Assembly: GCA_964406645.1 (NCBI GenBank)
Contig: CAYOSM010000001.1
Location: 5,564-69,563, forward strand
Length of the DNA: 64,000 nucleotides
Direction of reading: 5' to 3'
Source: an uncultured Bifidobacteriaceae bacterium
GTDB taxonomy: Bacteria; Actinomycetota; Thermoleophilia; Miltoncostaeales; Miltoncostaeaceae
Position numbers and translations under genes: made by a program. The notes beneath the pieces are model-generated. The model saw nothing but the letters and a program-made list of their open reading frames with translations. It was not told the DNA's origin and ran no database searches. The stretch's first letter is position 1; each line of letters begins with the position of its first letter. Shown piece after piece: positions 19,431-45,502 of the stretch.

Positions 19431-19439
19431 CCTGCGGCG

Positions 19440-20302: not shown

Positions 20303-20384
20303 GTTCGACTTCCGAGGTTACCTCGAAAGGAGAGCGCCCCGCGTGTGAGGCCCGCCGTGCGTCATACGTCAGACGCGAGCACTG

Positions 20385-27271: not shown

Positions 27272-27606
27272 GCGACGACTGGTTCGACGAACAGTTCTTC
27301 CATCGGGACGTCGGGCTGGTCGGGCTGCCCGCTGAGGCCGTCGAGGAGCTTGCCACCCTCTGTCAAGAGGAACTCGAGCTACGGGTCGGGCGCGCCATCT
27401 TCGCGATGTTCACGCCCGAGCAGTTCGAGGAGTTCGAGTCACTCCAGAACGATCCGCCCGCTGCTGTCGAGTGGCTGGACCGGGTGTGCCCGCAACGACC
27501 GGAGATTGTCGCGGCTGAGATGGAGGGGATCGTCCGAGCCCTGCACAAACGTGCGCCTGAGATCCGTAAGCGGTACGGCATATGGAACCTCTTCGACGAG
27601 AGTTAA
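27268..27606 (+). CDS. Small acidic hypothetical protein translationally coupled to the TraD-like ATPase
   Basis: 112 aa; its ATG overlaps the upstream stop (ATGA at 27268-27271). Confidence 0.6.
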   Translation: MSDDWFDEQFFHRDVGLVGLPAEAVEELATLCQEELELRVGRAIFAMFTPEQFEEFESLQNDPPAAVEWLDRVCPQRPEIVAAEMEGIVRALHKRAPEIRKRYGIWNLFDES

Positions 27607-27900
27607 GCGGTGGTGAACTGGCCGGATGTTCCAAGGGTCTCCGCATACCGGTGGTGCCCGACACGCGACGCCACACAGAGTGGCTCTTCGCGGAGGATCT
27701 GTTCCCGCGTTACCTCAGTCTTCTCGTACCCATCGTGTGAACCTCCTCCACCCACCACCGTGGACTAGAAGCCAGAACCCACACAACCACAAGACCCACC
27801 CGACGGGTCACGCCACGGGAGATCGGGCGATCAGCGCCGCAACTCAGCACATGCTCTTTGTCCAGGACACGCAACCGGTGTCCGTGGGAGAATCGCACTT

Positions 27901-30813
27901 GTGAGTATCGCGGCAGACAACGGACCGTTAGGGAAGCTCCGAGTCTTCGTCAGCTACGGCCATGATGAGCATTCCGAGCTCGCCGAGAAGCTGAGGCTCG
28001 ATCTTCTCGAACGCGGACATGAGGTCTGGTTCGATCAGACTGAGCTGACGGTGGGTGAGGACTGGGAGCTTCAGATCGAGACGGGCCTCGATTGGCTCGC
28101 CGAGAAACGCGATCGCGCGCGCATGATCGTGTTGATGACGCCGCATTCGGTCCGCCGACCGGATGGCTACTGTCTCAACGAGATCGCGCGGGCGGTCTCG
28201 CGTCGCATCGGCATCATCCCAGTGATGGTCGCGCAGTGCGAGCCGCCCTTGTCCATCTGCCGTATTCAGCATCTGGACATGTCGAGGTGCACTCCGGTGT
28301 CCGAGAAGGAGTCCGAGTACGCGGAGTCACTACGGGTGCTTCTCGGCGCGATCGAAGGGAAGGGGCCGGATGTTGAGGGATTCGCTGCACGGAAGGCGAC
28401 CGTACTCAACCCGATCGACTTCTCCGTCGAGCTGGCAGCCCACAAGGACTTCGTAGGACGCGGGTGGATCCTGAAGGAACTCGATTCGTGGATTAGGGAT
28501 CCAGACGGGAAGCCCGTGTTCACATTGGTCGCCCCACCGGGGTTCGGGAAATCGGCCCTGGCAGTCGAAGTGATACATCAGAGCGGGCACGTAACAGCGT
28601 TTCATATCTGTAACCACTCGAATCAGGAAAAGAATGACTCGAAGCGTCTCGTCATGTCGCTGGCGCATCAGATCTCGACCCAGATGCCGACCTATGACGC
28701 TGTGCTGAAGACGCTGGACCTCGACTACGTGGTCAACGAGTATGACGCAGCCACCCTCTTCGACGTTCTGCTTGCGACCCCGTGCGGGCAGATCCTGCCG
28801 CCCGGTCGGACGATGGTAATCGTGATCGACGGCCTGGACGAGGCGACGAAGGACGGCCGAAACCCCGTAGCCGAATTCGTCGCCGATCGCGCGGCGACGC
28901 TGCCCAATTGGATCCGGATTCTTGTGACGACGCGGCCGGAGCCTGAAGTGCTCGGTCCACTAGAGCCGCTGGGACTGCACCGAGTAGATCCACTCGACTT
29001 GGAGAATCGTGCGGATGTCCAGGACTACTTGAGGGCAAGAATCGGGGAGATCGATGCACCTGCGGCCGCGCATGAACACGCCGTCGATGTCGTCGCAGAA
29101 CGCTCGTCAGGCGTGATGCTCTATGCGCGCTCAGCATGCGAGATGCTGCACCGTGATGGCATCTCAGAAGAGAGCCTCAACGCGCTCCCGGACGGGCTTT
29201 CCTCTCTCTACTACCGCCAGTTCTCAGCACGGTTTCCCGATGTCGACCGCTACGGCTTCTCGGTCCGACCGATCCTCAGCTTGTTGATCGCGGCGTTTCA
29301 GCCGATCGGCTTTGACCTCCTGGCCGCGAGCCAGGGCACCTCTGAAGACGAACTCTGGCAGTCGATTCTCGGGCTTGGATCACTGGTGGTCGACAACGGT
29401 GACAGTGTCACCCTTCACCACAAGACACTGCGCGACTGGCTTTCAGACCGAAGAGCTGCCCATCGCTACTTCGTCTCGGAAGATGCCGGACACCGCTTGC
29501 TGGCATCGGCCACGGCGGAGTGGAAGAAGGTCCCACGCGAGGCTCGTCAGTATCTCTTCAAGTTCGGGCCTCGCCATCTGCTCCACGAACGTGACTGGGA
29601 CGGTTTGTTCCGGGTTATCCGGGAACCGCGGTTTGCCGAGGGGAGGATGCAGCTTCTCGACGACACCATTCGCGACCCGACCAAGACGGATCTGCTCTTA
29701 GACTTGGTCGAACACCTCGTGGATTCCGACGAATCGGGGCTGCTGGATGTCCTCATCGACCGTCTTCATGTCGCTGTCGAACTCGGGTTGTGGCATTCAG
29801 TGATGCCGATCGTCGATGAGGTCATGCTTGACCTGACGTCCGGTCAGCGGAACCGGATCGGGTTTCTTCGCGCCTGGTCGCTCCAAATGTCTGGGGATCT
29901 TGAGAGGGCTGTCGCCGCCTACGAAGACCTTGGAGACGACGTGGACGACCCAGACGGTCACATCGCGTTCAGGCGAGCTGACGCAGTACGCGAGGCCGGG
30001 AACTTCGACGAGGCATTTGAGACCTATCGGGATCTCCAATCACAGGCGGAGGCTCCGGTCCGCCTGCAAATCCTCTACGGGCAACAGTACGCAGACCTTC
30101 TGTATGTGCGCGGGCAGTACCAGGATGCGCTCGATGCTCTGAATACGGCCCTCGAGCGTGGGCACCGCGGGGCACCTGAGATGTTCGCTGAGGCACTCCG
30201 GATCCGTGGCCACATCCACCGCGTCATGCTGGATTCGCAGGAAGCTCTCGCTGACTACGCGGAAGCGCGCGAGATCTTTTCCGAGATCGGCCATCGTTCG
30301 GGAATCGCGCGCATCGAGACCAATCTCGCAGAGGTCTACGCTCTTACTGACCCCGATCGAGGAATCTGGCATGCCGAACAGGCCGCCCACCTGAACGGTG
30401 AGGTCGGCGCGAACCTAGAGGTCGGTAAGGCCATCCGAGCGAAGGGACTCGCCCTCGCCGCAAGAGGTTCCTATGGCGATTCGAGGAGCGTTCTTGATGT
30501 GGCTGAGAGTCGGCTTACCGAAGTCGGCTACGCCGCCGGAGTGTGTGAGACGCAAGCGAACAGAGTCGTCCTCCATGTGCTTGAGAAATCCATTGACGAC
30601 ACCCGGGATTTGATCGTCTCACTTGCTGGTCGGCTCAAGGCACTGAACGCTTATCCGTTGCTGGTTGTCCGTTCGTGCATTCTCCTTGGACGCCACGAAG
30701 CGCTCGATTCGACACTGGCGGCGATCGAGCGCACGTCGGCGGATGCCATTCAATGGCCGATCACTCGAGACGACTACGCGAATCGCCTCCTGGCGGGGCT
30801 AGGACTTTTGTGA
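27901..30813 (+). CDS. TIR-NACHT (STAND NTPase)-TPR protein (TIR-STAND 1)
   Basis: GTG start after GGGAGA. TIR-like LRVFVSYGHDEHSELAEKL...DWELQI...RMIVLMTPHSVRRPDGYCLNEIARA. Walker A VAPPGFGKSALA. NACHT-type Walker B MVIVIDGLDEA. TPR-like helical repeats in the last ~350 aa. Confidence 0.85.
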   Translation: MSIAADNGPLGKLRVFVSYGHDEHSELAEKLRLDLLERGHEVWFDQTELTVGEDWELQIETGLDWLAEKRDRARMIVLMTPHSVRRPDGYCLNEIARAVSRRIGIIPVMVAQCEPPLSICRIQHLDMSRCTPVSEKESEYAESLRVLLGAIEGKGPDVEGFAARKATVLNPIDFSVELAAHKDFVGRGWILKELDSWIRDPDGKPVFTLVAPPGFGKSALAVEVIHQSGHVTAFHICNHSNQEKNDSKRLVMSLAHQISTQMPTYDAVLKTLDLDYVVNEYDAATLFDVLLATPCGQILPPGRTMVIVIDGLDEATKDGRNPVAEFVADRAATLPNWIRILVTTRPEPEVLGPLEPLGLHRVDPLDLENRADVQDYLRARIGEIDAPAAAHEHAVDVVAERSSGVMLYARSACEMLHRDGISEESLNALPDGLSSLYYRQFSARFPDVDRYGFSVRPILSLLIAAFQPIGFDLLAASQGTSEDELWQSILGLGSLVVDNGDSVTLHHKTLRDWLSDRRAAHRYFVSEDAGHRLLASATAEWKKVPREARQYLFKFGPRHLLHERDWDGLFRVIREPRFAEGRMQLLDDTIRDPTKTDLLLDLVEHLVDSDESGLLDVLIDRLHVAVELGLWHSVMPIVDEVMLDLTSGQRNRIGFLRAWSLQMSGDLERAVAAYEDLGDDVDDPDGHIAFRRADAVREAGNFDEAFETYRDLQSQAEAPVRLQILYGQQYADLLYVRGQYQDALDALNTALERGHRGAPEMFAEALRIRGHIHRVMLDSQEALADYAEAREIFSEIGHRSGIARIETNLAEVYALTDPDRGIWHAEQAAHLNGEVGANLEVGKAIRAKGLALAARGSYGDSRSVLDVAESRLTEVGYAAGVCETQANRVVLHVLEKSIDDTRDLIVSLAGRLKALNAYPLLVVRSCILLGRHEALDSTLAAIERTSADAIQWPITRDDYANRLLAGLGLL

Positions 30814-31775
30814 ACAACGGCCCACGGACGATTGCGCTCGTCGGTCTCGGTGCCATTTCCACTACCCATGTCGCGGCGCTGAAACTCCTACCGGATGAGT
30901 TTCACCTTGTAGCGGCTTGTGATCCCGATGTGTCGAAGCACGATCACTTAGGTTGTCGGACGTTCGCCTCCATGGAAGCGATGGCCCGCGAAACGAGACC
31001 CGACGCGATCGTCGTGGCCACGCCACCCGGCACCCACTACAAGCTAGCGCGAGAAGCGCTCGGACTCGGCGCACATGTCCTGATCGAGAAACCGGCGACT
31101 CCCACACTGGACGAGTTCGACGATCTGTGTCGAGAAGCTGACAAAGCGGACAGGGTGCTCTACTCGGCGCTACATTTCAGTTTCGGGCGTGAACTCCTTT
31201 GGTTCGTCAACCACCGTGCTTCGATCGACTCCTCATGGGGGACCGTAACCGACATCGAGTGCGGATTCTTCGATCCATACATCGAGGAGGGCGAGGTCGT
31301 CCCCCGCGCAAGGGGCTTGGAAGGCAGCTGGTCTGATAGCGGGCCGAACGCGTTGAGCGTAGTGGCAGCGTTCTGTGACCATCTGAGCATGGTCGAGTGC
31401 AGTACCGAGCGGATTGACGGCTATCCGTTGGATGTTGCGGCGAGGAGCAGAGTCTCTTTTCGAGATCGTCGAACGGGCGCACCCGGTGAGGCCCACATCG
31501 TGACCGACTGGAGGCGGGGAATCAGCCGAAAGTCCACGACACTGCACTACACGGAGTCCCGCGAACGGATCGAACTTGATCACAGTATTGAACGCGTCAT
31601 CTCTCATGCCCCGGACGGAGCTACGCGAATCCTGTTTGAGTCCGACTGCCCGAACCACCACATGCTGGCGCACTACGAAGGGGTGTATAAGGATTTCGCT
31701 CGCTTCCTCCACCGTGGGCAGGACAATAGGGTGCTCGGCCGCGCGGTGGTTGATGCGACTCAGCTGTCGCGGTAG
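30810..31775 (+). CDS. Gfo/Idh/MocA-family NAD(P)-dependent oxidoreductase
   Basis: GTG at 30810 overlaps the TIR-NACHT stop (GTGA). Rossmann start IALVGLGAISTTHVAAL, then DAIVVATPPGTHYKLAREALGLGAHVLIEKP (EKP motif). The part of the track ORF before 30810 lies inside the upstream gene. Confidence 0.8.
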   Translation: MNNGPRTIALVGLGAISTTHVAALKLLPDEFHLVAACDPDVSKHDHLGCRTFASMEAMARETRPDAIVVATPPGTHYKLAREALGLGAHVLIEKPATPTLDEFDDLCREADKADRVLYSALHFSFGRELLWFVNHRASIDSSWGTVTDIECGFFDPYIEEGEVVPRARGLEGSWSDSGPNALSVVAAFCDHLSMVECSTERIDGYPLDVAARSRVSFRDRRTGAPGEAHIVTDWRRGISRKSTTLHYTESRERIELDHSIERVISHAPDGATRILFESDCPNHHMLAHYEGVYKDFARFLHRGQDNRVLGRAVVDATQLSR

Positions 31776-31993
31776 TTAGTCGCCCCGCGACGAGTAGACC
31801 GGGCATTTTCTCGGCTCGTTGAGTCACCCGTGTGGCTTCTATCAGCTACGGGTGCGATGAGATGAAGCTCCAGCAAGAAGTCCGGGCGATCGGTCCCAGC
31901 TACGGTCGTGGCTAGAGAGGTGCGCCGCTGAGACGACGTAGGCTTGCCGCCGGGCGCCAAGACCCGAGCTACGACCGAGGGAGAGGTTGCCAG

Positions 31994-34900
31994 GTGTTCG
32001 ACATCTTCATCAGTTACGCACGCCACGATGACAGCGACGGCTGGGTCACCGGTCTGCGAGATGTGATTGTCGCGGATTTCCAGCGGTTTGAGCGGACGCC
32101 ACGGATCTTCTTGGACCGCGAGGACATCCGTGACATGGACGATTGGCGGCACCGAATTCTGGTTGGCTTACGCGAATCACGGGTACTTTTGGTGTGTCTG
32201 TCGCCCGCGTACCTGAAGAGCGAGTACTGCCGGTGGGAGTGGCAGGAGTACGCGCGCCGACAGGCCCGGCTGGCGGGCGGAGGAGACACGGTCGCCGGGA
32301 TCTACTGCGTCGAGATGAACGATCCGGACACCGACGACGTCACCCAGTGGCGACGCGAAGTCGAAACCATCCAGATGACCGACGTGCGCCCCTGGTTCCC
32401 ACAGGGACGATCCGTGCTGGAACAGGACGCCGTCAAGGAGCGACTGTCGGCACTCGGCGAGAGCCTGTCGAAACGTCTGCAGCGCGCTCGGCTGGCACAG
32501 GATTCGCCGGGCAACCTGCAGCGATTCGATCCGTACTTCGTGGGCCGCAAACGCGAGCTGCACGCGCTGCGCGACAGCCTCAGCGCCGGCCGAGTCGGCA
32601 CCGTCACCGCGCTCAGCGGCCTCGGCGGCATGGGCAAGACCGAACTCGCCGTCATCTACGCACACGGCTACCGACACGCCTACCCCGGCGGCACCTGGCA
32701 GATCGGATGCGAGGGTGCAGCCGACCTGGTCGATGTGATCGCAAGCCTCGCCTTCGAACTCAACATCAACGCACCCGACGGAACCCCAACCGACGCCCGC
32801 GCACGCATGGTACTGAGTCGCCTCAGAGAACTCGCACACACACCACGCGAGGACACCCCGGACGACAGCCCGGAACCGGCGACACTTCTCTTGCTGGACA
32901 ACGTCTCGAAACAGAGCCTGTTCTCACCGGAGAGCCTGCGGATCCTGCCAGAGGAGTCCTGGCTACACGTCATTGCAACCACCCGGCTGGGTGAAACCGA
33001 CGTGCAGGCCGTCGGTGCGAAACCCTACGTCAATCTGCTGACGATCACGGCTCTCGACGCCGGTGACGCACTGGAAGTGATTCGCGATCACCAGGAACCC
33101 CGCGACACCGACCGGCTGCACCCCGACTTCGTCGATGCGGACGCCGAGCAGGAAGCAGGGGAGTTGGTCAACGTACTGCAGGGCTTCACGATGGCAGTCA
33201 AACAGGCAGCCGTGTACCTCGGTGCCAACCCCGACCTACGCCCCAGTGATCTCCTCAACACCTTGCACGACCACAGTGTCACCCATCTGGACGACCTGAC
33301 GTCGGAAACCCAGCGGCGCTCGGTGGGAGTGATCCTCGACCAAACCCTCGCCCAACTCACCCCGCGCTGCCTCGAAGCCCTCCAACTCGCCGCCCTCATG
33401 CCACCCGACCACATCGTCTGGCAATGGCTCGAAGAGTTCACCGCACACCTCGACGAAAACCACCCCGACGGCGAACGCTGGCCCGTCGTCCAACGCACAC
33501 TCCTAGGACGCCACCTCATCACCCCCGGCGACACGCTCGAGACGGCCCGCATCCACCGTCTCATCGCCGCCCATATCACCAACAACCTCAGCCCGCCTCA
33601 GGCCGCCGACATCACCGAACGATTCGACGCCTGGGTCGTCGAAGCCGCTGATATCTGCAGTGTCCAGGGCACCCGCCTGACACAGGCGTTCGTGGAACTC
33701 CTCATTCACCGCACCCCCCACAACACGGAGCTCACGCACCAGGCCGTCTACTACGCGCAGACCCTTTCCAGCCTCATCGACCTCGACCACCAAACGCGTC
33801 TGGCAGACACCCTCCACCACCAGCTACGCGGCCTCGCCACCCGCGACGACACCAACACACAGTGGCTCCGGGACCTCGCCGTCAGCCTCAACAACGTAGG
33901 AGACATCGCCACAGCTCAAGGAGAACTGGACAGTGCACACGACGCCTACCAAGAGTCCCTCGACACCATGCGCGAACTCGTCACCCGCGACCCCACCAAC
34001 ACCACCCGGCTCCACGATCTCGCCCGCAGCCTCCTCAACGTCGGAGACGTCACCCGAGCACGCGGCGACCTCGACACCGCCCACACAACGTTCCAAGAGT
34101 CCCTCAACACCATGCGCGACCTCGTCACCCGCGACCCCACCAACACCCAGTGGCTCCGCGACCTCACCATCAGCCTGGACAGAGTCGGAGACGTCACCCG
34201 AGCACGCGGCGACCTCGACACCGCCCACACAACGTTCCAAGAGTCCCTCGACATCCGGCGCGACCTCGTCACTCGCGACCCCACCAACACCACCTGGCTC
34301 CACGGCCTCTCTATCAGCCTCGGAAAGGTCGGTGACATCGCGCACGAACGTGGCGACCTCGACACCACCCAAGACGCCTACAGAGAGTTCCTCAACATCA
34401 TGCGCGAACTCGTCACCCGTGATCGCACCAACACACAGTGGCTTCGCGACCTCACCGTCAGCCTCAACAACGTCGGAGACGTCACCCGAGCACACGGCGA
34501 CCTCGACACCGCCCAATCCATGCACGAAGAATCCCTCAACACCCGGCGCGACCTCGTCACCCGCGACCCCACCAACACAGAATGGCTCCGCGACCTCACC
34601 ATCAGCCTGGACAGAGTCGGAGACGTCACCCGAGCACGCGGCGACCTCGACACCGCCCACACAATGTTCCAAGAATCCCTCGACATCCGGCGCGACCTCG
34701 TTACCCACGACCGCACCAACACCCAGTGGCTCCGCGACCTCACCATTAGCCTCGAGAGGGTAGGAGACGTCACCCGAGCATGCGGCGACCTCGACACCGC
34801 CCAATCCATGTACGAGAAATCCCTGGACATCATGCGCGACCTCGTCACCCGCGACCCCACCAACACGGAATGGCTCGGAGATCTCACCATCAGCCTTAAC

Positions 34901-35185
34901 AACGCCGCCGATATCGCCCTAGCTCGAGGAGACCTCGACACCGCCCAAGACGCCTACCAAGAGTCCCTCGGCATCTTGCGCGACCTCGTCACCCGTGACG
35001 ACACGAACACCAACTGGCTCCACGATCTTGCGTTCAACCTCGGCCGAGTCTGGAACGTCCACCACGAGAACGCACTCCTCGCAGAGGCCCGCACAATCCT
35101 CACGGAGCTTGGCGAGCGGGGCCTATTGTCGCCCGACGGCGTCGAAGTCCTCGCACAGATCAATACCATCCTCGACGCCGACTGA
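31994..35185 (+). CDS. TIR-NB-ARC-like (STAND)-tandem helical repeat protein (TIR-STAND 2)
   Basis: GTG start after GGGAGAGG. TIR-like FDIFISYARHDDSDGW...VLLVCLSPAYLKSEYCRWEWQEY. FVGRKRELHAL; Walker A GLGGMGKTELA; Walker B TLLLLDNV. C-terminal 8.5 copies of a 48-aa repeat. Confidence 0.88.
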   Translation: MFDIFISYARHDDSDGWVTGLRDVIVADFQRFERTPRIFLDREDIRDMDDWRHRILVGLRESRVLLVCLSPAYLKSEYCRWEWQEYARRQARLAGGGDTVAGIYCVEMNDPDTDDVTQWRREVETIQMTDVRPWFPQGRSVLEQDAVKERLSALGESLSKRLQRARLAQDSPGNLQRFDPYFVGRKRELHALRDSLSAGRVGTVTALSGLGGMGKTELAVIYAHGYRHAYPGGTWQIGCEGAADLVDVIASLAFELNINAPDGTPTDARARMVLSRLRELAHTPREDTPDDSPEPATLLLLDNVSKQSLFSPESLRILPEESWLHVIATTRLGETDVQAVGAKPYVNLLTITALDAGDALEVIRDHQEPRDTDRLHPDFVDADAEQEAGELVNVLQGFTMAVKQAAVYLGANPDLRPSDLLNTLHDHSVTHLDDLTSETQRRSVGVILDQTLAQLTPRCLEALQLAALMPPDHIVWQWLEEFTAHLDENHPDGERWPVVQRTLLGRHLITPGDTLETARIHRLIAAHITNNLSPPQAADITERFDAWVVEAADICSVQGTRLTQAFVELLIHRTPHNTELTHQAVYYAQTLSSLIDLDHQTRLADTLHHQLRGLATRDDTNTQWLRDLAVSLNNVGDIATAQGELDSAHDAYQESLDTMRELVTRDPTNTTRLHDLARSLLNVGDVTRARGDLDTAHTTFQESLNTMRDLVTRDPTNTQWLRDLTISLDRVGDVTRARGDLDTAHTTFQESLDIRRDLVTRDPTNTTWLHGLSISLGKVGDIAHERGDLDTTQDAYREFLNIMRELVTRDRTNTQWLRDLTVSLNNVGDVTRAHGDLDTAQSMHEESLNTRRDLVTRDPTNTEWLRDLTISLDRVGDVTRARGDLDTAHTMFQESLDIRRDLVTHDRTNTQWLRDLTISLERVGDVTRACGDLDTAQSMYEKSLDIMRDLVTRDPTNTEWLGDLTISLNNAADIALARGDLDTAQDAYQESLGILRDLVTRDDTNTNWLHDLAFNLGRVWNVHHENALLAEARTILTELGERGLLSPDGVEVLAQINTILDAD
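33851..35070 (+). repeat. In-frame 144-bp tandem repeat array (8 full + 1 partial units) encoding TNTxWLRDLxxSLxxVGDVxRAxGDLDTAxxxxxESLxxxRDLVTRDP
   Basis: The same motif recurs at 33991 and 34135 (144-bp offset) and onward. Several 35-40-nt stretches are identical or nearly identical between units (e.g. gacctcgacaccgcccacacaa[c/t]gttccaaga[g/a]tccctc at ~34070, ~34210, ~34640). This produces the pile of shadow ORFs in all frames. Confidence 0.9.
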
Positions 35186-35193
35186 CGCGGCCG

Positions 35194-36636
35194 TCACCCC
35201 GCGCGCAGGGCTCCGACGTCGAAGGTCGTCAGTAGGTGCCGGGCCGCCGTGTGCTGGCGCTTGAAGGGTCGCACCGTCACGACGATACCGTTGGTCGGGT
35301 TGGCACCCCGCACCGCATCGACGACCACACCTTTCCCCTCTAACAGTTCCTCGAACGCGGCGGTGATCTGCTTCACCGATGTCGATGTCTTCGCGATGGT
35401 CACCACCAGGACGTAGCGATGGTCGTAGATCCGCACCTGAACCCCGGAGCGCACGAACTCCGCGTAGAGATCCACCAGCCCTGACTCTTCGTACACCCGG
35501 ACCGATGTCGGCACCGACGGTGTCGACCGCGGCCGAACGCCCGGAGGCCGCACAAGGCGCTCGAGCACCACGGGCAGAGGATCGCGCTCGAGATCCTCCG
35601 CGTCCACGACCTGGATCCCGTACTCCCAGCACAGACTGCGGAACTCCTGCGCGATCCGCTGAAGAGGACGAAGCAGGATGTACTGATCTCCTCCATCGCC
35701 GAGCTGCCGACGCGTGGCATACGCCTCCCGGATCTGAGTGCTCAGCGGAAGTGCCCGCTCCTCGTCCATCAGTTTGCAGTCGATGACGTGGAGCCGGCCT
35801 CGTGAGTTGACCACGACATCGACCTCCTGCACGCGGAGTATCCCGTCGTAGAGAACCGCGCTCACCGCGACGTCGTCGGCCGCCACCCCCATACCGCGCA
35901 TCAGCGCCATGACGAACTGCTCGAAGACATGTCCCCCCTGGATCCGGTCCTTGGTGTCCTCGACCGCTTGCGTGAAGTGCGTGTACCAGCTCGGCGGATC
36001 GGCGAGCGCCTGAGCGGCGGCAGCCTCGACCTCGGGGTCGATCTCCGTGTGCTGCGCCCGCACCGTCCGTTCCTCATCGGCCCAGGTGACGTTCAGCAAC
36101 GACGCGACCGAGAACCGCTCGATCGCACGGTCGTCGTAGCCGGCCAGTTCACGGATGGCCCCGCCCGACAACAGCTCGTACCATGGCGGCCCTTCCGCAT
36201 CGCAATAGACGACCCGTACGCGCTCCGACCGGTCCGCGAGGCGGGCCGCACCCGCGAACATCAGCCGCGTGCCACCGGAGGCGACGACCAGCCAGTCGCG
36301 CTCGGCGGCCGACGCGTTGATCGGATCGACGACAGCGGCCACGACCGCAGGAGGATCGTCATCGGGAATCGGCTCGTGCCGATGCACGGCGATCCCAGGA
36401 AAACTGTCGGTGATGAAGGCCTCGAGACGGTCCTCGGGGCCACCGGGCTCGTTGTCGCCGTACGCCGTGATCAGGTGCACATCACGGACCCCCTCACCCC
36501 ACTGGGCCAACGCGTCCAATTGACGCCACAGCCCTTCACTCGCAAACATCACCATGCCATCAGGCTGGCCCAGTTGATCCATGCTTTCCGTCTCCATGTC
36601 GGTAACCGCGCCAAGACGCCGTTGACCTCGGGCCAA
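35194..36636 (-). CDS. Card1/Can2-like CARF + PD-(D/E)xK (DUF1887-type) nuclease with extra C-terminal domain
   Basis: The N-terminal Rossmann-like block ends in WLVVASGGTRLMFAGA (CARF GGT[KR] loop). Nuclease block GHVFEQFVMALMRGMG...VQEVDVVVNSRGRLHVIDCKL...QLGDGGDQYILL...YGIQVVD. ~110 unassigned aa follow. The start is uncertain (M1, M14 or M19). Confidence 0.7.
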   Translation of the reverse strand: MARGQRRLGAVTDMETESMDQLGQPDGMVMFASEGLWRQLDALAQWGEGVRDVHLITAYGDNEPGGPEDRLEAFITDSFPGIAVHRHEPIPDDDPPAVVAAVVDPINASAAERDWLVVASGGTRLMFAGAARLADRSERVRVVYCDAEGPPWYELLSGGAIRELAGYDDRAIERFSVASLLNVTWADEERTVRAQHTEIDPEVEAAAAQALADPPSWYTHFTQAVEDTKDRIQGGHVFEQFVMALMRGMGVAADDVAVSAVLYDGILRVQEVDVVVNSRGRLHVIDCKLMDEERALPLSTQIREAYATRRQLGDGGDQYILLRPLQRIAQEFRSLCWEYGIQVVDAEDLERDPLPVVLERLVRPPGVRPRSTPSVPTSVRVYEESGLVDLYAEFVRSGVQVRIYDHRYVLVVTIAKTSTSVKQITAAFEELLEGKGVVVDAVRGANPTNGIVVTVRPFKRQHTAARHLLTTFDVGALRAG

Positions 36637-36696
36637 GATTACTCGGGCGCTGCTCTGGGCCGCGCACTCAGCAGCATGTCCCCTGACGTAGGCGAA

Positions 36697-36715
36697 GGCA
36701 TGACGGCGTCATGCC
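36697..36715. other. Short hairpin GGCATGAC-ggc-GTCATGCC in the spacer between the SLOG-RyR gene and the CARF-nuclease gene
   Basis: 8-bp perfect stem read from the sequence; located in the 354-nt minus-strand intergenic spacer. Confidence 0.3.
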
Positions 36716-36990
36716 CATCCCCCCACAAGAGCGGACGGTATCCAACTCCGTGGTCCTGTCGATGTGCATTTGACGACGACCGGTGCAATACCCGATGTCC
36801 CGAGGGTTTCATCTCGATCCAGAGCGTGTCTCGTCGGGTTATCCAGACCGGACGCATCGGAGCACACGAGGCCCGACACGGGCGCGTTGGCAAGACCTTT
36901 CGAGGCAAAGCTAAACACACTCATAGGCATCATCACGCGATCATCCTGGGAGTGAGCACCGCGTACAGGACGAATCCGAAGAACGCACGC

Positions 36991-39822
36991 TCATTCATCG
37001 CGGACGAGAACGTACCCGCATCGCTCCGCCTCGTAGAGAGCTGCGAGGACTGTCCGGCGATCCTTCACCCGCTCGTCCTCGGCGAGGACGTCCCAGGGTA
37101 TGAGCACCTGCGTCGTCATCCGGATGGGGTTCCGCACCCCGTCACTCCAACCGCTGAGCAGACGCTCGCTGCAGTAGCGACCATGCTCGAGTTCGGCCAG
37201 ACGGTCGAGCGTCTTGCCGGGAGCGGTCTCGGTTCCGAGGGCGCCGGTGGGCACCGCGTGCACCGCAGACCCATGCGTGGTGCGCTGCAGACGCAACCCC
37301 TCCCTGGCGAGTTTCAACGCCAGGTCGTCAGCGACCGCGATATTCGAATCGCGCAGGTTCTGGGGCTGCCCCTCCCAGGATCTCATGGCGATGTCGTCCG
37401 GCATCTGGGTCTCGGCTTTGACATACGCCATGTGGACGGCCCGCCCGATGCGCTGGCGCTCCTCCTCATCCGGCCAGGTCGCGAAGCGGAGAAAAGAGCG
37501 GATGGTCGCTCGATCATCGATCAGGCGGACGACACCCTGATCGCCACCCGGCAGTTCCTCGTCCCAGTCGGTCTCGTCGCCAGGAAGGGGAAGCCAGCCC
37601 ACCCGAACGTTCAGCGCGCGGGCAATCATGACTTCCCTGCGGGTGATGGGGCCCCCTGAACAGACGATGACGCGCACGTCGTTAAGGTCCACTCCGGAGC
37701 GCGCGATGTCCTCCCATCCCGCAATCGCCTGTTCGATCGAGCCTTCTGCTCCAACCTCACTGCGGCGGTCACGATGGTACCCGTCGTGAAAAGTCGCCCC
37801 TCGCCACGCATATCCGGCCGCGTCGAGGCCGAGTTCCTCGGCCACATCGCCGATAACACCGGGCAAACCACTCTCTGTTCCGCCGCTGACGACGACACCC
37901 TCGAACTGAGGCGCACCGAGGGCGAACGAGAGCGTCGCACGAAGCCAGTCCTTGATGTCCTTGGCGTCCTTCCGCTCGTCGAGCGACTTCGCGCCACCGG
38001 CGAACACAGCCACTGGGCCACGCATGGGATGACGATCCGAGGCCTTCCCGTCGCGGGGCAACAGGCATTCATCACGATCGTCGTGTGTCTCCGACAGGAA
38101 GGCGATCCGGACACCGAGGATCCTGCGGATCCACCCTGCCATCGGTACGTCCGGATTCCGCACTTCGGCCATGTCATTCCACAGATCGATCAGTGCCGCC
38201 CGATCCGTTGAACGACGAATGACCTCACACCACAGCATCAGGGCAGCCTCATCGTGCGCACCGTCGGTGAGCAGACACTGAGCAATGCGGGAACGCGCAT
38301 CCACCCGATCGATGGAGAGATCAATGGAGGCATCCTCCAAGAGGTCGGGAAGACCCGGGTTGATCGCTTCGACTACCGCTCGGGCACCGGCCCGGAAATG
38401 GACGAACTCGCGGGTAACCGCCGCCGTTCTGAGAAGGTCGATCCCCTTGAGCTCCTGGCCCTCATTCTCCTCTCGAAGGCGCTCATCAATGGGCTGCCTT
38501 CTCAACAGGTCGAGGTCCGCGGAGGTCTCCTCGATGTCGACCGGCCCCTCCGATATCCGGCCGGCGAACCCGTGGATCCGCGAGCCGACCCAGTGGAGAT
38601 CCACCGAATCGCCGAGGCACCCCTTCAGCCCACCGACGATGGTCTCGACCCCCGCGACCTCATCCCCGGCCACCACAAGGTGCATGGGTTCCCGCCAGGC
38701 GGCGATCCTCCGACGGATCGCCGACGGAAGACCATCCTGGTCGACCTCACAGGGTGCGGCCTCCACCTCCGGAATGCCCAAAGCACCCTCGTACAACGGA
38801 CGCAGCCGATCGACGAACGCTTCGGCATCCGGCGCCATCACCGTGACAATCCTCCACCCCTGTCCTTCCTCCTTCCGTCGGCGCGACCGAGTCACCCGCA
38901 GAGCCTCAAAGATCAGGGCGCGAGTGAATGGTCCGGCGCCGACGATCAGAAGACGCTTTCCGTCGCATTTGCCTACCGACGAATGGAGCTTCGCCGCCGC
39001 GATCACCTCGGCTCGACACGCGACCACGGTTCGCGACTCGCCGTTGGATGATTCGTCGTTGGATCCACACACGACGGCGGATCGCGGCTCCTCGTTCGTC
39101 ACCATCTCGGCAAGCGCACGATCCGCCAGACAGACATACACGGGGATGGCGTGCGGACCGACCGCGCGAGATCCGACATCCCGCATACACCATCCCTGAA
39201 ACGGGACGTACGCCTGGGTTCCCGGACGGGCTGCCAGTAGAGAATCCGCCACGTCGATGCTGAGTTCGTCGTCCCCGGTGGCAACCACAACGTTCTCAGC
39301 CCGGTGGGCAGCGGCGCGGGCCCGGATATCAGAGGCGAGCAACTCGACGGACACCGTCCTCACACCCTCACGACGAAGCGCGGCCAGGATCTGCGGATCA
39401 CCACCGTCATCGGCGACAACAACCTTCCGCTCAGCCACCTCATGGCGGGCGAGTGCCACAGCGAACGGACTCAATCCGATGATGAGCAGGTGACCGCGCG
39501 AGAGGCGTGTCCACAGGTTGCGTACCCGCTCGGAGAAAGTGGCGACCAATCCACCCACGAGAAGGATGGGCGCAAGAAGTCCCGCCAACAACAGGAGCCA
39601 GGGAGTCCCTACGCCGTCCGGCACCGCCATCCCCGCAAAGAACAGCGTGAACACCCGGTACAGGATTCCCCGGAACCCCGGTTCCTGCCCCGCGGGCCAG
39701 TCCACCTGGAGGTATCCGATGACGCCCACCACGGACACGACCAGTACCGCCATGAGCAGGGCCACGTACTCCGGGGAGCGGCGCCACCACGATCGAGATC
39801 GTCCTTCACCGCGAGATGTCAT
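36991..39822 (-). CDS. 2TM - tandem Rossmann (TrkA-N/RCK-like) - SLOG (LOG/DprA-like) - RyR domain protein
   Basis: Two N-terminal hydrophobic helices (YVALLMAVLVVSVVGVIGY; WLLLLAGLLAPILLVGGLVA). GxGxxG-like HLLIIGLSPFAVAL and RLLIVGAGPFTRAL. SLOG-like VAVFAGGAKS...GVVVSGGTESGLPGVIGDVAEE...VIVCSGGPITRREV. C-terminal RyR-like LAELEHGRYCSERLLSGWSDG...LIPWDVLAEDERVKDRRTV. Confidence 0.65.
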   Translation of the reverse strand: MTSRGEGRSRSWWRRSPEYVALLMAVLVVSVVGVIGYLQVDWPAGQEPGFRGILYRVFTLFFAGMAVPDGVGTPWLLLLAGLLAPILLVGGLVATFSERVRNLWTRLSRGHLLIIGLSPFAVALARHEVAERKVVVADDGGDPQILAALRREGVRTVSVELLASDIRARAAAHRAENVVVATGDDELSIDVADSLLAARPGTQAYVPFQGWCMRDVGSRAVGPHAIPVYVCLADRALAEMVTNEEPRSAVVCGSNDESSNGESRTVVACRAEVIAAAKLHSSVGKCDGKRLLIVGAGPFTRALIFEALRVTRSRRRKEEGQGWRIVTVMAPDAEAFVDRLRPLYEGALGIPEVEAAPCEVDQDGLPSAIRRRIAAWREPMHLVVAGDEVAGVETIVGGLKGCLGDSVDLHWVGSRIHGFAGRISEGPVDIEETSADLDLLRRQPIDERLREENEGQELKGIDLLRTAAVTREFVHFRAGARAVVEAINPGLPDLLEDASIDLSIDRVDARSRIAQCLLTDGAHDEAALMLWCEVIRRSTDRAALIDLWNDMAEVRNPDVPMAGWIRRILGVRIAFLSETHDDRDECLLPRDGKASDRHPMRGPVAVFAGGAKSLDERKDAKDIKDWLRATLSFALGAPQFEGVVVSGGTESGLPGVIGDVAEELGLDAAGYAWRGATFHDGYHRDRRSEVGAEGSIEQAIAGWEDIARSGVDLNDVRVIVCSGGPITRREVMIARALNVRVGWLPLPGDETDWDEELPGGDQGVVRLIDDRATIRSFLRFATWPDEEERQRIGRAVHMAYVKAETQMPDDIAMRSWEGQPQNLRDSNIAVADDLALKLAREGLRLQRTTHGSAVHAVPTGALGTETAPGKTLDRLAELEHGRYCSERLLSGWSDGVRNPIRMTTQVLIPWDVLAEDERVKDRRTVLAALYEAERCGYVLVRDE

Positions 39823-40095
39823 CAGCTATCCAGACTCCGAGCACGCACAGTTACCGATCGCCGGAGAAGATAATGGACGCGCACGACCCAGATCACCGGT
39901 GCTCAATCGATTCGTGCGTCTCCCGCACAGACGATTCCACACCGCGTGTGGGGCATCGGCACTGGGCTACTCTCGGACTATCACGATGCAGGGGGAATCC
40001 TGAACGATCATCTCCGGAGTTGCGCGGAGGCCGGGATTCCGGCAGGAACCGTCAGCGGTGGTACGTAGGGTCGAACTGACAACGCGACACCACCC

Positions 40096-41193
40096 GTGAC
40101 ATTGACACCCTTGCCGGGCGACGTCCCAGTGGTGCCACCGGAACATCAACGGATCACCAGTAGCATCACGAATGGCCGTCGCAGCGGCGGCCGCAACCCG
40201 TACTCATCACCCACAGCAAGGCTACACGTGACCATTCCCCCACCTGCCTTCGGATGTTCTCCGTCCCACGATCAGATCGTGGAGGACATATCCCGCTGGT
40301 TGGCAGCACCCGCTCTCCACGAACTCCTGACGCGGTTCGGAGGGCCGACCCCGGCTAACGTCGACGATCTCGATCACGTCGCCGAATGGGCCGCGACGCA
40401 CTGGGATTTCCGGTCCGGCAGAGAGCGGAACCTGGTCCACGCGAGTGAGGTTGCAGCCGGAGATGAGGAACTCATCGTCGCGTGCGCCGACGAACTCGGC
40501 TTGGTCACCCCGAGGAAACCCGAGCGCGACTCCTACGACGCGATCGCCATGCTGGGAGGACTGATCCGTGCGTGCGTCTGGCGACCAGAATATGCGGCCC
40601 ATCTGGTCGCCCAGGGCGTACGCGCCAATAGCGTCGCCGCCATCTCGGGCTTCCGCACCCTCAACGATGCCGAGACCGTGATGCTCCCCGCGTTCGGGCT
40701 GAACGGCGTGACGGAAGAACACCAGGTGATGGAAGGCGCGCTGCGGACGGCGTTCGGGATCGACACCATGGACGACCGGATTCCCCTGGATGAGACGCTG
40801 CCGCCGAATCTGCGGCACTACGTGCGCACCGGACAGAGTTCGTCCGGAGTGCCCGCGATGATGGTCGTCGCACCGTCGACCGATCCTTCCCGCCGCGCGA
40901 ACACTCCGGACGGATACACGTACTGGTCGACTGAGGTCGCACATCTGCGCCCCGGTGACCGCGTGCTCCTCGTCACGACCCAGATCTACCTGCCGTTCCA
41001 ACATGCCGATGCCATCCGCATTCTGGGACTCACACAGGGATGCATCATCGAAACCGTCGGTGTCGACCGCGACGCGGTGGACGACCGCGGCCACGACCAA
41101 CCGTTCACGGGGGTCAACTACCTGCAGGAGATCAACTCGACCCTGAGGTCGTACCGAGGACTCATCGCCGTCGTCGAAGGCCAGAACCTCTGA
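40096..41193 (+). CDS. DUF218 (YdcF/SanA/ElyC)-like Rossmann-fold protein
   Basis: YDAIAMLGG, ISGF, TEEHQV, RANTPDG and VLLVTTQIYLPFQHADAIRILG follow the order of conserved DUF218 blocks. The stop overlaps the TIR-STAND 3 start (TGATG). The start is uncertain (track start 40096; GTG 40228 possible). Confidence 0.5.
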   Translation: MTLTPLPGDVPVVPPEHQRITSSITNGRRSGGRNPYSSPTARLHVTIPPPAFGCSPSHDQIVEDISRWLAAPALHELLTRFGGPTPANVDDLDHVAEWAATHWDFRSGRERNLVHASEVAAGDEELIVACADELGLVTPRKPERDSYDAIAMLGGLIRACVWRPEYAAHLVAQGVRANSVAAISGFRTLNDAETVMLPAFGLNGVTEEHQVMEGALRTAFGIDTMDDRIPLDETLPPNLRHYVRTGQSSSGVPAMMVVAPSTDPSRRANTPDGYTYWSTEVAHLRPGDRVLLVTTQIYLPFQHADAIRILGLTQGCIIETVGVDRDAVDDRGHDQPFTGVNYLQEINSTLRSYRGLIAVVEGQNL

Positions 41194-44114: not shown

Positions 44115-44544
44115 GCTGGCGCTTGGAGGGCGCGGCGTCGCTGGCCAGTATCGGACGATTCAGAGCCGATCCTCACATAGGAACGGCAGAGCATCTGGGG
44201 CGGTTCACGTCCACCCAACTCAGTCAACCACGCTCACCGCCGACCGAGCGTTCCGCTCCGACGCGGCCCGTTCACCATCAGTCACCTCAAGAGGCACGGC
44301 AGATAGAAGAAGCATACCCGCACGAAGGCGAAGCCCTTTGTGCGTCACATCACTCGTTATAATCACGCTGACTGAAACCGTTAGACCTTTGACCCTTTAA
44401 TCCCCTGGAACCGGTGGTGAAGAAATGGCCTGCCCATGTGTTGCCGCTCGCGGCTCTCAGTGCAAGTGGTGTAAGGAGGCCCAGACAGCGGGTAAGCCCC
44501 CGTCGCAGCACAACTGCCAATGGGGGCGCTGCACGTAGCGCAAA

Positions 44545-44840: not shown

Positions 44841-44972
44841 TGCGTGGGCTCTAGAACTCGCACGACCACCGGACCCACCCCTTGAAGCACGCCGACTCAG
44901 CGCACGTATTCACCCGCGACGATCGCCGACGACTTCAGTAGCACAACGAAAGTATCGCCTGCAATAAGGAGA

Positions 44973-45425: not shown

Positions 45426-45502
45426 GTTCGTCGGGCATCGCACACCGAGAGTCCGGATCATTCGCCTGCTGATTCGGGTCTCATCGATTTCAGCACCGTC
45501 GG

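What the first reader, a model, noticed from the sequence alone, without database searches (positions are those of the whole stretch)
35194..36636. Orphan Card1/Can2-like CARF-PD-(D/E)xK nuclease far from any CRISPR-Cas locus, with an extra C-terminal domain
The ORF contains a Rossmann-like N-domain ending in VVASGGTRLM, the CARF ligand-loop GGT[KR] context. A restriction-endonuclease-like core follows (FEQFV...EVDVVVNSRGRLHVIDCKL), matching the DUF1887 pattern E...D...(D/E)xK. About 110 residues of unassigned beta/alpha sequence come after it. There is no cas10, csm/cmr or repeat array in the window. Its stop is 8 nt from the stop of TIR-STAND 2.
Basis: partly seen in the sequence, partly recalled or inferred. 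Interest (0 to 1): 0.72.

Follow-up and report, generated by a model that had tools for sequence, protein, structure and literature searches.

The report
Stand-alone Can2/Card1-like signal-gated nuclease
This gene encodes a divergent relative of the CRISPR helper nucleases Can2 and Card1, which cut nucleic acids when a small nucleotide alarm signal binds them; here it sits in a defence-gene island with no CRISPR system nearby and carries an extra tail domain of unknown function, making it an interesting variant of a known kind.

Summary
The ORF at 35194..36636 (-) is real, with a probable true start at ATG 36582 (462 aa). It has an N-terminal CARF domain (SGGTRLMF), a PD-(D/E)xK nuclease core (E239, D273, D286-C-K288) and a roughly 105-residue C-terminal alpha/beta domain. 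Family profiles hit Can2 and Card1 in the PDB (4e-14 and 4e-11). An AlphaFold model (pLDDT 88) matches Card1, VC1899, Can2 and Cdn1 (Foldseek 1e-15 to 1e-13). Pfam's own model stays below threshold, and all relatives are unannotated.

The family is rare: 7 loci in 185,579 species genomes. The window holds no cas genes and no array. Sixteen of 17 distinct contexts lack CRISPR. One 45%-identical ortholog, with the same pocket and tail domain, lies inside a type III CRISPR-Cas locus.

The wider family keeps the cA4-contact residues. The actinobacterial subclade, including this protein, has changed several of them (T to A, K to R, Q lost).

TIR neighbours are not a conserved partner. A HerA/TrwB-like ATPase is the most recurrent neighbour. 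The C-terminal domain matches no known fold.

Verdict: a new variant of a known kind, of moderate interest.

The parts
35194..36582 (-). Coding sequence of the Can2/Card1-like nuclease (462 aa from ATG 36582). The mechanical ORF extends to a TTG at 36636 (480 aa). Residue numbers in this report use the 480-aa numbering.
   Evidence: ORF list. Homologues start at M19. GGAG lies 9 nt upstream of ATG 36582. The exact 462-aa product is called on public contigs.
36127..36582 (-). CARF (Rossmann-like) sensor domain, residues 19-170
   Evidence: The family profile aligns to the Can2 7BDV CARF domain (res 47-133) and the Card1 6WXW CARF domain (res 3-137). Foldseek matches Card1, Can2, Cdn1, and the CARF domains of Csm6, Cam1 and ring nucleases. 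Model pLDDT is about 90-97 here.
36265..36276 (-). GGTR ligand-loop motif (G121-G122-T123-R124), equivalent to Can2 G96-G97-T98-K99
   Evidence: Translation check. G121 and R124 are invariant in 30 close homologues. The position is K in 115 of 122 distant family members. It aligns to Can2 K99, Card1 K102 and Cdn1 K104. These are cA4 phosphate contacts (PMC7969007, PMC12825302).
36532..36540 (-). Loop after beta-1, S33-E34-G35, equivalent to Card1 S11-E12-Q13 and Cdn1 T9-x-Q11
   Evidence: Translation. Alignment to Card1 'LVSEQTIPN'. S-E-Q is conserved in the wider family, whereas the close subclade has G-E-x.
35947..36126 (-). Helical linker/insert between the CARF and nuclease domains (residues 171-230)
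   Evidence: Model secondary structure. Aligned inside the Card1/Can2 matches.
35542..35946 (-). PD-(D/E)xK nuclease domain (residues 231-365). Catalytic residues: E239 (35920..35922), E271/D273 (35818..35820), D286-C-K288 (35773..35781).
   Evidence: Pfam Card1_endonuc, weak (16.3 bits, cut-off 26.4). PADLOC CARF4--CARF_PDDEXK 5.6e-9. Profile alignment to the Can2 and Card1 nuclease motifs 'FE..., E(L/V)DVV..., LHVIECK'. These residues are invariant or nearly invariant in 156 family members.
35197..35508 (-). Extra C-terminal alpha/beta domain (residues 377-480), of unknown function. It is present in about 60% of close homologues.
   Evidence: Alignments A1 and A2. Models have pLDDT 83-97. 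No significant structural match in the PDB (best E 0.01, uL23/Rpb11-like sandwiches) or in viral models (best E 0.01). No PDB sequence match. Within the fetched loci it is found only in the nuclease itself.
24758..27271 (+). HerA/TrwB(FtsK)-like P-loop ATPase (837 aa, Walker A GQTGTGKS). This is context, as the most recurrent neighbour of the nuclease family. A functional link is not shown.
   Evidence: Pfam TrwB_AAD_bind, DUF87, nSTAND_NTPase5. PADLOC mad8 and HerA. Orthologues lie directly next to the nuclease in L014, L015, L022 and L030.
27268..27606 (+). Small DUF5663-like protein following the ATPase (context)
   Evidence: It clusters with the DUF5663 genes of L015, L028 and L030.
31994..35185 (+). 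Convergent neighbour TIR-NB-ARC-like-TPR STAND protein ('TIR-STAND 2'). This is context and not a conserved partner.
   Evidence: Pfam TIR_2 and TPR families. It shares no similarity with the TIR-type neighbours in L031 and L004.

Best explanation
The gene encodes a divergent, previously unannotated member of the Can2/Card1 (CARF4, DUF1887-like) class of ligand-gated nucleases.

By analogy with Can2, Card1 and Cdn1, it should act as a homodimer. The two CARF domains would form one composite pocket. A phosphate-rich nucleotide messenger would bind there, contacted by the S33-E34 loop, the GGTR loop (R124) and Y144. Binding would rotate the two PD-(D/E)xK domains together, so that E239, D273, D286 and K288 with a divalent metal cut DNA and/or single-stranded RNA. 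The result would be arrest of the infected cell or the invader. The fold, motifs and their conservation are shown here. Dimerisation, ligand gating and substrate are inferred.

The most likely class of ligand is a Cas10-type oligoadenylate-derived signal, because a close ortholog with the same pocket and tail domain sits inside a type III CRISPR-Cas locus. In this window, and in most relatives, the gene is detached from CRISPR and lies in defence or conflict islands. It would therefore either be served in trans by a system elsewhere in the genome, or answer to a different, still unidentified signal source. The altered pocket residues of the actinobacterial subclade (T58 to A, K124 to R, Q35 lost) leave the exact ligand open.

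The C-terminal alpha/beta domain is an optional add-on, possibly an oligomerisation or regulatory module. Its role is unknown.
For: Architecture and fold:
- PADLOC CARF4--CARF_PDDEXK 5.6e-9.
- Family profile A1 against PDB: Can2 7BDV 2.6e-7, with both domains aligned.
- Wider profile A3 against PDB: Can2 4.3e-14, Card1 4.1e-11, Cdn1 2.1e-10, VC1899 1.4e-7.
- AF2 model pLDDT 88, pTM 0.75.
- Foldseek against PDB: Card1 6XL1 1.3e-15, VC1899, Can2, Cdn1 and Can1 as the top 23 hits.

Selection on both domains:
- G121, R124, W152 and R70 in the CARF domain, and E239, E271, D273, D286 and K288 in the nuclease, are invariant in 30 sequences at about 45% identity.
- They are almost invariant in 156 sequences.

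Pocket:
- The wider family keeps S33/E34/Q35, T58, K124 and Y144. These are the equivalents of Can2 S19/T42/K99/Y118 and Cdn1 T9/Q11/T37/K104/Y124, which contact cA4.
- The window protein keeps S33 and Y144 and has R124.

CRISPR link:
- In L021 the ortholog lies between Cas6/RT-Cas1/array/Csm3-like RAMP and a CorA-like accessory gene.

Defence-island context:
- Neighbours include TIR-STANDs, type I and MmeI restriction-modification, GmrSD, PemK, integrase and transposases.
Against: - Pfam Card1_endonuc is below its gathering score (16.3 against 26.4), and there is no NCBIfam hit.
- Sequence identity to solved Can2 and Card1 structures is only 10-17%.
- No cas10, csm/cmr genes or array occur in the window, or in 16 of 17 contexts. 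No signal generator is identified.
- The subclade has lost T58 and Q35 and swapped K124 for R, the same K-to-R change as in the cA4-unresponsive orphan VC1899.
- The mapping of S33 and T58 rests on sequence alignment, not on a superposition with ligand.
- Nothing biochemical was tested.
Confidence: 0.72

Rival explanations
1. The nuclease is the effector of a HerA/TrwB-like ATPase module, analogous from my own knowledge to the DUF4297-HerA or SIR2-HerA defence pairs. In this reading the ATPase assembles with or licenses the nuclease. The CARF-like domain would serve as a nucleotide or assembly sensor independent of CRISPR.
For: - Orthologous ATPases (intact Walker A) lie directly beside the nuclease on the same strand in L014 (4-nt overlap), L015, L022 (52-nt gap) and L030. 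One lies 8 kb away in the window.
- The L022/L030 pairs diverge in step: ATPase 74% identity, nuclease 74%.
- A small DUF5663-like gene travels with the ATPase.
- PADLOC scores the ATPase as mad8 and HerA ('type III coevolved').
Against: - Twelve of 17 contexts have no such ATPase within 10 kb, yet the nuclease is just as well conserved there.
- In the window, two TIR-STAND genes and an oxidoreductase separate the two genes, which are on opposite strands.
- ATPase identities (29-47%) are generally lower than nuclease identities (43-50%).
- No interaction was tested.
Confidence: 0.15
2. The nuclease is switched on by a TIR-made NAD-derived signal (a cADPR isomer or an ADPR conjugate) from the adjacent TIR-STAND proteins. 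That would make it a Thoeris-like pair with a CARF sensor.
For: - A TIR-STAND gene ends 8 nt from the nuclease stop, and two more lie within 8 kb.
- A TIR-NACHT gene is the divergent neighbour in L031, and a DUF4062-TPR gene in L004.
- ADP-ribose-related neighbours occur elsewhere: a Macro-domain protein in L021 and Sa_NUDIX in L029.
- The subclade's pocket differs from the canonical cA4 pocket.
Against: - Only 3 of 17 contexts have a TIR-type neighbour. The three share no BLAST similarity with each other and have three different orientations.
- From my own knowledge, STAND-TIR proteins are usually self-contained sensor-effectors.
- The window already holds a better candidate receiver for a TIR signal, the SLOG/RyR membrane protein at 36991..39822.
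- The ortholog with the same pocket sits in a type III CRISPR locus.
- From my own knowledge, no CARF domain is known to bind a TIR product.
Confidence: 0.07
3. [quoted passage not shown]
For: - It is an orphan in most genomes.
- It carries Arg instead of Lys in the GGT[KR] loop, as VC1899 does, and it has lost the Thr and Gln contacts.
- The family is very rare: 7 loci in 185,579 species genomes.
Against: - Both domains are under strong conservation across Actinomycetota and Planctomycetota.
- The ORF is intact and full length in every locus.
- The pocket is not acidic or hydrophobic as in VC1899. S33, R70, R124, Y144 and W152 are kept, and R145 is kept in nearly all close relatives, although it is Cys in the window protein.
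Confidence: 0.06

Closest known systems
Can2 (Sulfobacillus thermosulfidooxidans, PDB 7BDV; Thermoanaerobacter brockii 8Q3Y) and Card1 (Treponema succinifaciens, 6WXW/6XL1): type III CRISPR ancillary nucleases of the CARF4/DUF1887 class
   Same: - Same order of domains: N-terminal CARF, helical linker, C-terminal PD-(D/E)xK.
- Shared GGT[K/R] loop.
- Shared S-E-(Q) loop after beta-1, as in Card1.
- Aromatic residue at the Can2 Y118 position.
- Shared catalytic FE...E-x-D...(D/E)-x-K motifs.
- Best structural and profile matches.
- One ortholog lies inside a type III locus.
   Different: - Only 10-17% identity.
- Pfam model below threshold.
- K to R in the ligand loop, T42-equivalent replaced by Ala, and Q lost.
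- An extra 105-residue C-terminal domain with no known fold.
- No CRISPR-Cas in this window or in 16 of 17 contexts.
VC1899 of Vibrio cholerae (PDB 1XMX), the founding orphan DUF1887 protein
   Same: - It is an orphan, not next to a type III system.
- It has Arg at the GGT[K/R] position.
- Its nuclease catalytic residues are retained.
- It is the third-best structural match.
   Different: - VC1899's pocket is acidic and hydrophobic (Asp9, Asp34, Val115), and cA4 does not activate it (PMC7969007).
- This protein keeps Ser33 and Tyr144, and the family has a strongly conserved, basic pocket (R70, R124; R145 in nearly all close relatives, though Cys in the window protein).
- VC1899 lacks the C-terminal domain.
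Cdn1 (Psychrobacter lutiphocae, PDB 8Z4I/9U49), a Can2-family RNase activated by cA4 and cA6 that also binds cA3
   Same: Same fold and motifs. The key contacts T9, Q11, T37, K104 and Y124 map onto family positions 33, 35, 58, 124 and 144.
   Different: Cdn1 is encoded in a type III-B locus. The window protein has S, G, A, R and Y at those five positions.
Type II Panoptes CARF-TM effector controlled by mCpol-made cA3 (PMC13577387)
   Same: It is a CARF sensor working outside CRISPR-Cas in an anti-phage system. This shows that non-CRISPR signal sources for CARF domains exist.
   Different: - No mCpol-like gene was recognised next to this nuclease in any context.
- The Panoptes effector is a membrane protein that is held inactive by its ligand, which is the opposite logic.
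HerA-partnered defence nucleases (DUF4297-HerA, SIR2-HerA; from my own knowledge)
   Same: A PD-(D/E)xK nuclease is encoded beside a HerA/FtsK-type ATPase in 4 of 17 contexts.
   Different: The nuclease here carries a CARF domain. The pairing is absent in most contexts and split in the window. It was not tested.

Membership tests
Can2/Card1 (CARF4, DUF1887) ligand-gated nucleases | N-terminal CARF Rossmann-like domain with the GGT[K/R] ligand loop | tested here: met
   SGGTRLMF aligns to Can2 TGGTKIM and Card1 TGGTKIM. Foldseek matches cover the CARF domain. G121 and R124 are invariant.
Can2/Card1 (CARF4, DUF1887) ligand-gated nucleases | C-terminal PD-(D/E)xK nuclease domain with an intact E...D...(D/E)xK catalytic set | tested here: met
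   E239, E271/D273 and D286-C-K288 align to the Can2 and Card1 catalytic motifs. They are invariant or nearly invariant in 156 sequences.
Can2/Card1 (CARF4, DUF1887) ligand-gated nucleases | Scores above the curated threshold of the Pfam family model (PF09002 Card1_endonuc) | tested here: not met
   16.3 bits against a cut-off of 26.4. None of the 29 homologues has any precomputed Pfam domain. This is a divergent branch, recognised only by PADLOC CARF4 models, family profiles and structure.
Can2/Card1 (CARF4, DUF1887) ligand-gated nucleases | Conserved cA4-contact residues (Can2 S19, T42, K99, Y118; Cdn1 T9, Q11, T37, K104, Y124) | tested here: inconclusive
   The window protein has S33 (kept), G35 (Q lost), A58 (T lost), R124 (conservative change) and Y144 (kept). 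The wider family keeps all of them. The mapping is by sequence alignment only.
Can2/Card1 (CARF4, DUF1887) ligand-gated nucleases | Encoded in or beside a type III CRISPR-Cas locus | tested here: not met
   No cas genes or array occur in the 64-kb window. Sixteen of 17 contexts lack them. One ortholog (L021) is inside a type III locus. The rest of this genome was not available.
Can2/Card1 (CARF4, DUF1887) ligand-gated nucleases | Homodimer whose nuclease activity is switched on by cyclic oligoadenylate | not testable with these tools
   This needs purified protein, or at least a dimer-plus-ligand model.
Thoeris-like TIR signalling pair | Conserved co-occurrence of the effector with a cognate TIR signal producer | tested here: not met
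   TIR-type neighbours occur in 3 of 17 contexts. They are mutually unrelated and differently oriented.
HerA/FtsK-type ATPase + nuclease defence pairs | Conserved adjacent ATPase partner | tested here: inconclusive
   An ATPase is adjacent in 4 contexts, 8 kb away in the window, and absent in 12.

The most novel reading that the evidence does not exclude
The actinobacterial subclade of Can2-like nucleases, with its altered pocket (G/S33, A58, R124) and its private C-terminal domain, may have been recruited away from type III CRISPR. In this reading it responds to a non-cOA ligand or a non-Cas10 signal source. Candidates are a product linked to the recurrent HerA/TrwB-like ATPase, the ClpB-like/radical-SAM/kinase cluster, or NAD-derived nucleotides from neighbouring TIR, Macro or NUDIX genes. 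It would then be a CARF nuclease operating in a new, CRISPR-independent signalling system of actinobacterial conflict islands.
Probability: 0.17. Interest if true: 0.75.

Novelty: new variant of a known kind. Interest (0 to 1): 0.42.

Why it matters
CARF effectors were defined by their link to type III CRISPR. Only recently have CRISPR-independent uses been shown (Panoptes). Most orphan CARF proteins, such as VC1899, remain unexplained.

This small, well-conserved and wholly unannotated subfamily has three useful properties. It keeps an intact nuclease and a conserved but altered ligand pocket. It is detached from CRISPR in 16 of 17 contexts. It still has one member inside a type III locus. 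That makes it a tractable case for asking whether orphan CARF nucleases are served in trans by distant CRISPR systems or have acquired new signals.

The extra C-terminal domain, and the recurrent ATPase and ClpB-like/radical-SAM/kinase neighbours, give concrete handles for that question. It does not overturn anything known.

Tried and rejected
- **C-terminal domain as a shared adaptor with neighbours.** I asked whether it is an 'effector-associated domain' of the kind described for actinobacterial conflict systems. An HMM of the domain found it only in the nuclease itself, across the window and 31 loci. Rejected at HMM sensitivity.
- **Fold assignment of the C-terminal domain.** Foldseek against PDB and BFVD gave nothing below E 0.01. 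A PDB profile search gave only noise. A database search with its alignment returned nothing at all, not even the family itself, so that search is uninformative.
- **TIR neighbour as a conserved partner.** No similarity between the TIR-type neighbours of the window, L031 and L004.
- **The 943-aa upstream gene as a conserved partner.** No similarity to the upstream genes in L001 and L002.
- **Plasmid, phage or viral origin.** No relatives in PLSDB, INPHARED or IMG/VR.
- **MADS defence system.** The kinase and ATPase give only partial hits to MAD6 and mad8, with no methyltransferase or other mad genes. Not pursued.
- **Promoter and terminator scan around the gene.** Nothing found. The consensus used is poorly suited to high-GC actinobacteria.
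- **Direct sequence search of the single protein against PDB.** No hit. Family profiles were needed.
- **Papers not held.** The Rostol 2021 (Card1) and Makarova 2020 (CARF classification) papers are not in the library.
Full report
**1. The observation**

The minus strand carries an ORF at 35194..36636 (480 aa from a TTG). All homologues begin at the position of M19. A GGAG lies 9 nt upstream of that ATG (36582). Public gene calls use exactly this 462-aa product. I keep the 480-aa numbering.

The stop is 8 nt from the stop of the convergent TIR-NB-ARC-TPR gene at 31994..35185.

The window has no CRISPR-like array and no Rfam match. No cas family was found among the roughly 38 ORFs I scanned. 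A tblastn with the Cas proteins of a related locus found nothing. A long antisense ORF (35929..37659, +) overlaps the gene and is the usual high-GC artefact.

**2. What the protein is**

The single sequence gives only a sub-threshold Pfam hit (Card1_endonuc, 16.3 bits against 26.4) and nothing in NCBIfam or in the PDB by phmmer. PADLOC's CARF4--CARF_PDDEXK models score up to 5.6e-9.

The family is small. The 5.8-billion-protein collection holds 29 clusters, all 'hypothetical' and none with a Pfam domain. Their alignment (A1, about 45% identity) has invariant G121 and R124 in SGGTRLMF, and invariant E239, Q270-E271-V-D273 and D286-C-K288.

- A profile of A1 finds Can2 (7BDV) at 2.6e-7, with separate alignments of the CARF and nuclease domains, and Card1 at 0.0019.
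- A broader profile (A3, 60 sequences) gives Can2 4.3e-14, Card1 4.1e-11, Cdn1 2.1e-10 and VC1899 1.4e-7. Weaker hits to the CARF domains of Csm6 and ring nucleases follow.
- An AlphaFold2 model built on A1 is confident (pLDDT 88, pTM 0.75).
- Its 23 best Foldseek matches in the PDB are all Card1, VC1899, Can2, Cdn1 or Can1 (1.3e-15 to 9.5e-10).

The CARF plus PD-(D/E)xK reading is therefore well supported, although the protein is a divergent branch at 10-17% identity to solved structures.

**3. How rare and how wide the family is**

- Only 7 loci were found in one genome each of 185,579 species. They are in Nocardioides (4), Aeromicrobium, Rarobacter and one Planctomycetota MAG.
- 8 loci were found in JGI metagenomes.
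- None was found in plasmids, phages or viral contigs.
- An exhaustive HMM search of 1.84 billion representatives found 310 proteins at E<=1e-3 and 83 at E<=1e-30. There are about 12 close clusters, and a more distant tier of roughly 490-aa proteins that includes a Gemmatales (Planctomycetota) protein.

**4. The ligand pocket**

Zhu et al. (PMC7969007) name four cA4 contacts shared by Can1 and Can2: S19, T42, K99 and Y118. In the cA4-unresponsive orphan VC1899 these positions are D, D, R and V. The Cdn1 paper (PMC12825302) names T9, Q11, T37, K104 and Y124.

In the profile alignments, K99/K102/K104 align with position 124. Y118/Y124 align with position 144. Card1's S11-E12-Q13 aligns with positions 33-35.

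| Position | 122 distant members | 34 close, mostly actinobacterial sequences | Window protein |
|---|---|---|---|
| 33 | S (102) | G | S |
| 34 | E (97) | E/D | E |
| 35 | Q (107) | variable | G |
| 58 | T/S (110) | A | A |
| 124 | K (115) | R | R |
| 144 | Y (120) | Y/H/F | Y |

The ancestral pocket therefore looks like a canonical oligoadenylate pocket. The subclade's pocket is conserved but altered, and far less degenerate than that of VC1899. The equivalence of positions 33 and 58 rests on sequence alignment only. I could not superpose coordinates.

**5. The extra C-terminal domain**

Residues about 377-480 form a compact two-layer alpha/beta domain (pLDDT 90-97 in its core). It is present in about 60% of close homologues and in some distant ones, and absent in the 345-375-aa forms.

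It has no significant structural neighbour in the PDB or in viral models. The best E is 0.01, to uL23- and Rpb11-like sandwiches. It has no PDB sequence match. It occurs in no neighbouring gene of any locus. Its function is unknown. An oligomerisation or regulatory role is a guess.

**6. Genomic context**

The window changes from 71% GC (purL region, 1-12 kb) to 61-66% GC (12-64 kb). The low-GC part is packed with conflict-type genes:

- three TIR-STAND proteins (27901..30813, 31994..35185, 41040..44114);
- a HerA/TrwB-like ATPase (24758..27271);
- a membrane TrkA_N/SLOG/RyR protein (36991..39822);
- a cluster of Ser/Thr kinase, PP2C, FHA, ClpB-like AAA+, a 406-aa unknown protein and an NrdG-like radical-SAM protein (45503..53538);
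- an FtsK/EccC-like ATPase.

I compared 17 distinct contexts of the family: the window plus L001, L002, L004, L005, L012-L016, L020-L022 and L028-L031.

- The most recurrent neighbour is an orthologous HerA/TrwB-like ATPase. It is directly adjacent on the same strand in L014, L015, L022 and L030, and 8 kb away in the window. A DUF5663-like small gene often accompanies it.
- An orthologous ClpB-like/radical-SAM/FHA/kinase cluster accompanies the nuclease in the window, L014 and L016. A different ClpB-like subfamily with a TY-Chap1 gene occurs in L021 and L031.
- TIR-type neighbours occur in the window, L031 (TIR-NACHT-His_Phos_1) and L004 (DUF4062-TPR). They share no BLAST similarity and differ in orientation.
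- Other neighbours are typical of defence islands and mobile elements: type I and MmeI restriction-modification, GmrSD, PemK, Sa_NUDIX, integrase and transposases.
- The Planctomycetota locus has housekeeping neighbours.

**7. The CRISPR link**

A k-mer screen for arrays across all loci flagged only L021. This locus carries the following, in order:

- thirteen 36-nt repeats (1216..2110);
- RT-Cas1 (2617..4686) and Cas6 (4909..5727);
- a partial large Csm3/Cas7-III-D-like RAMP at the contig-proximal end (8e-19);
- downstream of the nuclease, a CorA-like accessory protein (1.4e-10), with a Macro-domain protein and a RiboL-PSP HEPN protein in between.

The L021 nuclease is 45% identical to the window protein. 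It has the same G/A/R pocket type and the same C-terminal domain. So the altered pocket is compatible with life inside a type III locus.

The presence of CorA, which from my own knowledge is linked to SAM-AMP signalling, leaves open which Cas10 product is involved. Cas10 itself was not within the fetched stretch. No other locus, nor the window, has homologues of these Cas proteins.

**8. Interpretation**

The best-supported reading is a Can2/Card1-type ligand-gated nuclease that is detached from CRISPR in this genome region.

- Shown: domain architecture, fold, catalytic and loop motifs, their conservation, the absence of CRISPR nearby, and one CRISPR-embedded ortholog.
- Inferred: dimerisation, activation by a nucleotide messenger, nucleic-acid cleavage and a defence role.
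- Unknown: the ligand, its source in this genome, and the role of the C-terminal domain.

The rivals are weighed in their own sections. They are a HerA-type ATPase partner, TIR-derived signals, and a decayed relic. The ATPase association is the only one with real, though partial, comparative support.

**9. Novelty**

Orphan DUF1887 proteins (VC1899), abundant CARF homologues outside CRISPR islands (PMC12669027) and a CRISPR-independent CARF effector (Panoptes type II; PMC13577387) are already known. The concept is therefore not new.

What is new is this unannotated subfamily, its private C-terminal domain, its altered pocket and its recurrent non-CRISPR neighbours. I rate it a new variant of a known kind, of moderate interest.

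Noticed in passing
L021 1..16713 (metagenome contig WBZP01000136.1): A type III CRISPR-Cas locus. It holds a partial Csm3/Cas7-III-D-like RAMP, thirteen 36-nt repeats, RT-Cas1 and Cas6. Its accessory region contains a ClpB-like AAA+ protein, TY-Chap1, the Can2-like nuclease, a 679-aa Macro-domain protein, a RiboL-PSP HEPN protein and a CorA-like protein. This is an unusual accessory set for one locus.
   Followed up: partly
window 36991..39822 (-): A 943-aa protein with N-terminal membrane segments, TrkA_N, a weak SLOG (LSDAT_prok, E 0.0024) and a C-terminal RyR domain (PDB RyR 1.8e-8). It is flanked by TIR-STAND genes. A SLOG-type receiver next to TIR enzymes would be a Thoeris-like arrangement with a channel-like effector. 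It is not a conserved neighbour of the nuclease.
   Followed up: partly
window 27901..30813 (+), 31994..35185 (+), 41040..44114 (+): Three different TIR-STAND NTPases lie within 16 kb: TIR-NPHP3/NACHT-like-TPR, TIR-NB-ARC-like-TPR and TIR-AAA_16.
   Followed up: no
window 33827..35025: The TPR region of TIR-STAND 2 is a tandem array of a 144-nt (48-aa) unit, 8.3 copies at 78% identity. This suggests recent expansion or diversification of the sensor repeats.
   Followed up: no
window 45503..53538 (-): A cluster of Ser/Thr kinase (983 aa), PP2C, zinc-ribbon-FHA, ClpB-like AAA+ (675 aa), a 406-aa unknown protein and an NrdG-like radical-SAM activase (225 aa). Orthologous clusters lie next to the nuclease family in L014 and L016. 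No described system was recognised; there are only partial hits to MADS MAD6.
   Followed up: partly
window 24758..27606 (+): A HerA/TrwB-like ATPase (PADLOC mad8 2e-13) followed by a DUF5663-like 112-aa gene whose start overlaps the ATPase stop. The same pair recurs beside the nuclease family in other loci.
   Followed up: partly
window 1..12000 versus 12000..64000: GC content drops from about 71% (purL and neighbours) to 61-66%. This is consistent with a large acquired island holding all the conflict genes. An FtsK/EccC-like ATPase (56633..59506) and an M48 peptidase lie near its far end.
   Followed up: no
L029 11208..12011 and L004 4253..5149: Genes immediately downstream of the nuclease ortholog encode an Sa_NUDIX protein (L029) and a protein with a weak cREC_REC 'cyclic-phosphate processing receiver' hit (L004, E 0.0022). 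Both families are predicted nucleotide-signal processors.
   Followed up: no
window 35929..37659 (+): A 576-aa antisense ORF overlaps the nuclease gene and the intergenic region. Antisense ORFs of the nuclease gene also cluster across loci. This is a high-GC artefact, not a gene.
   Followed up: yes
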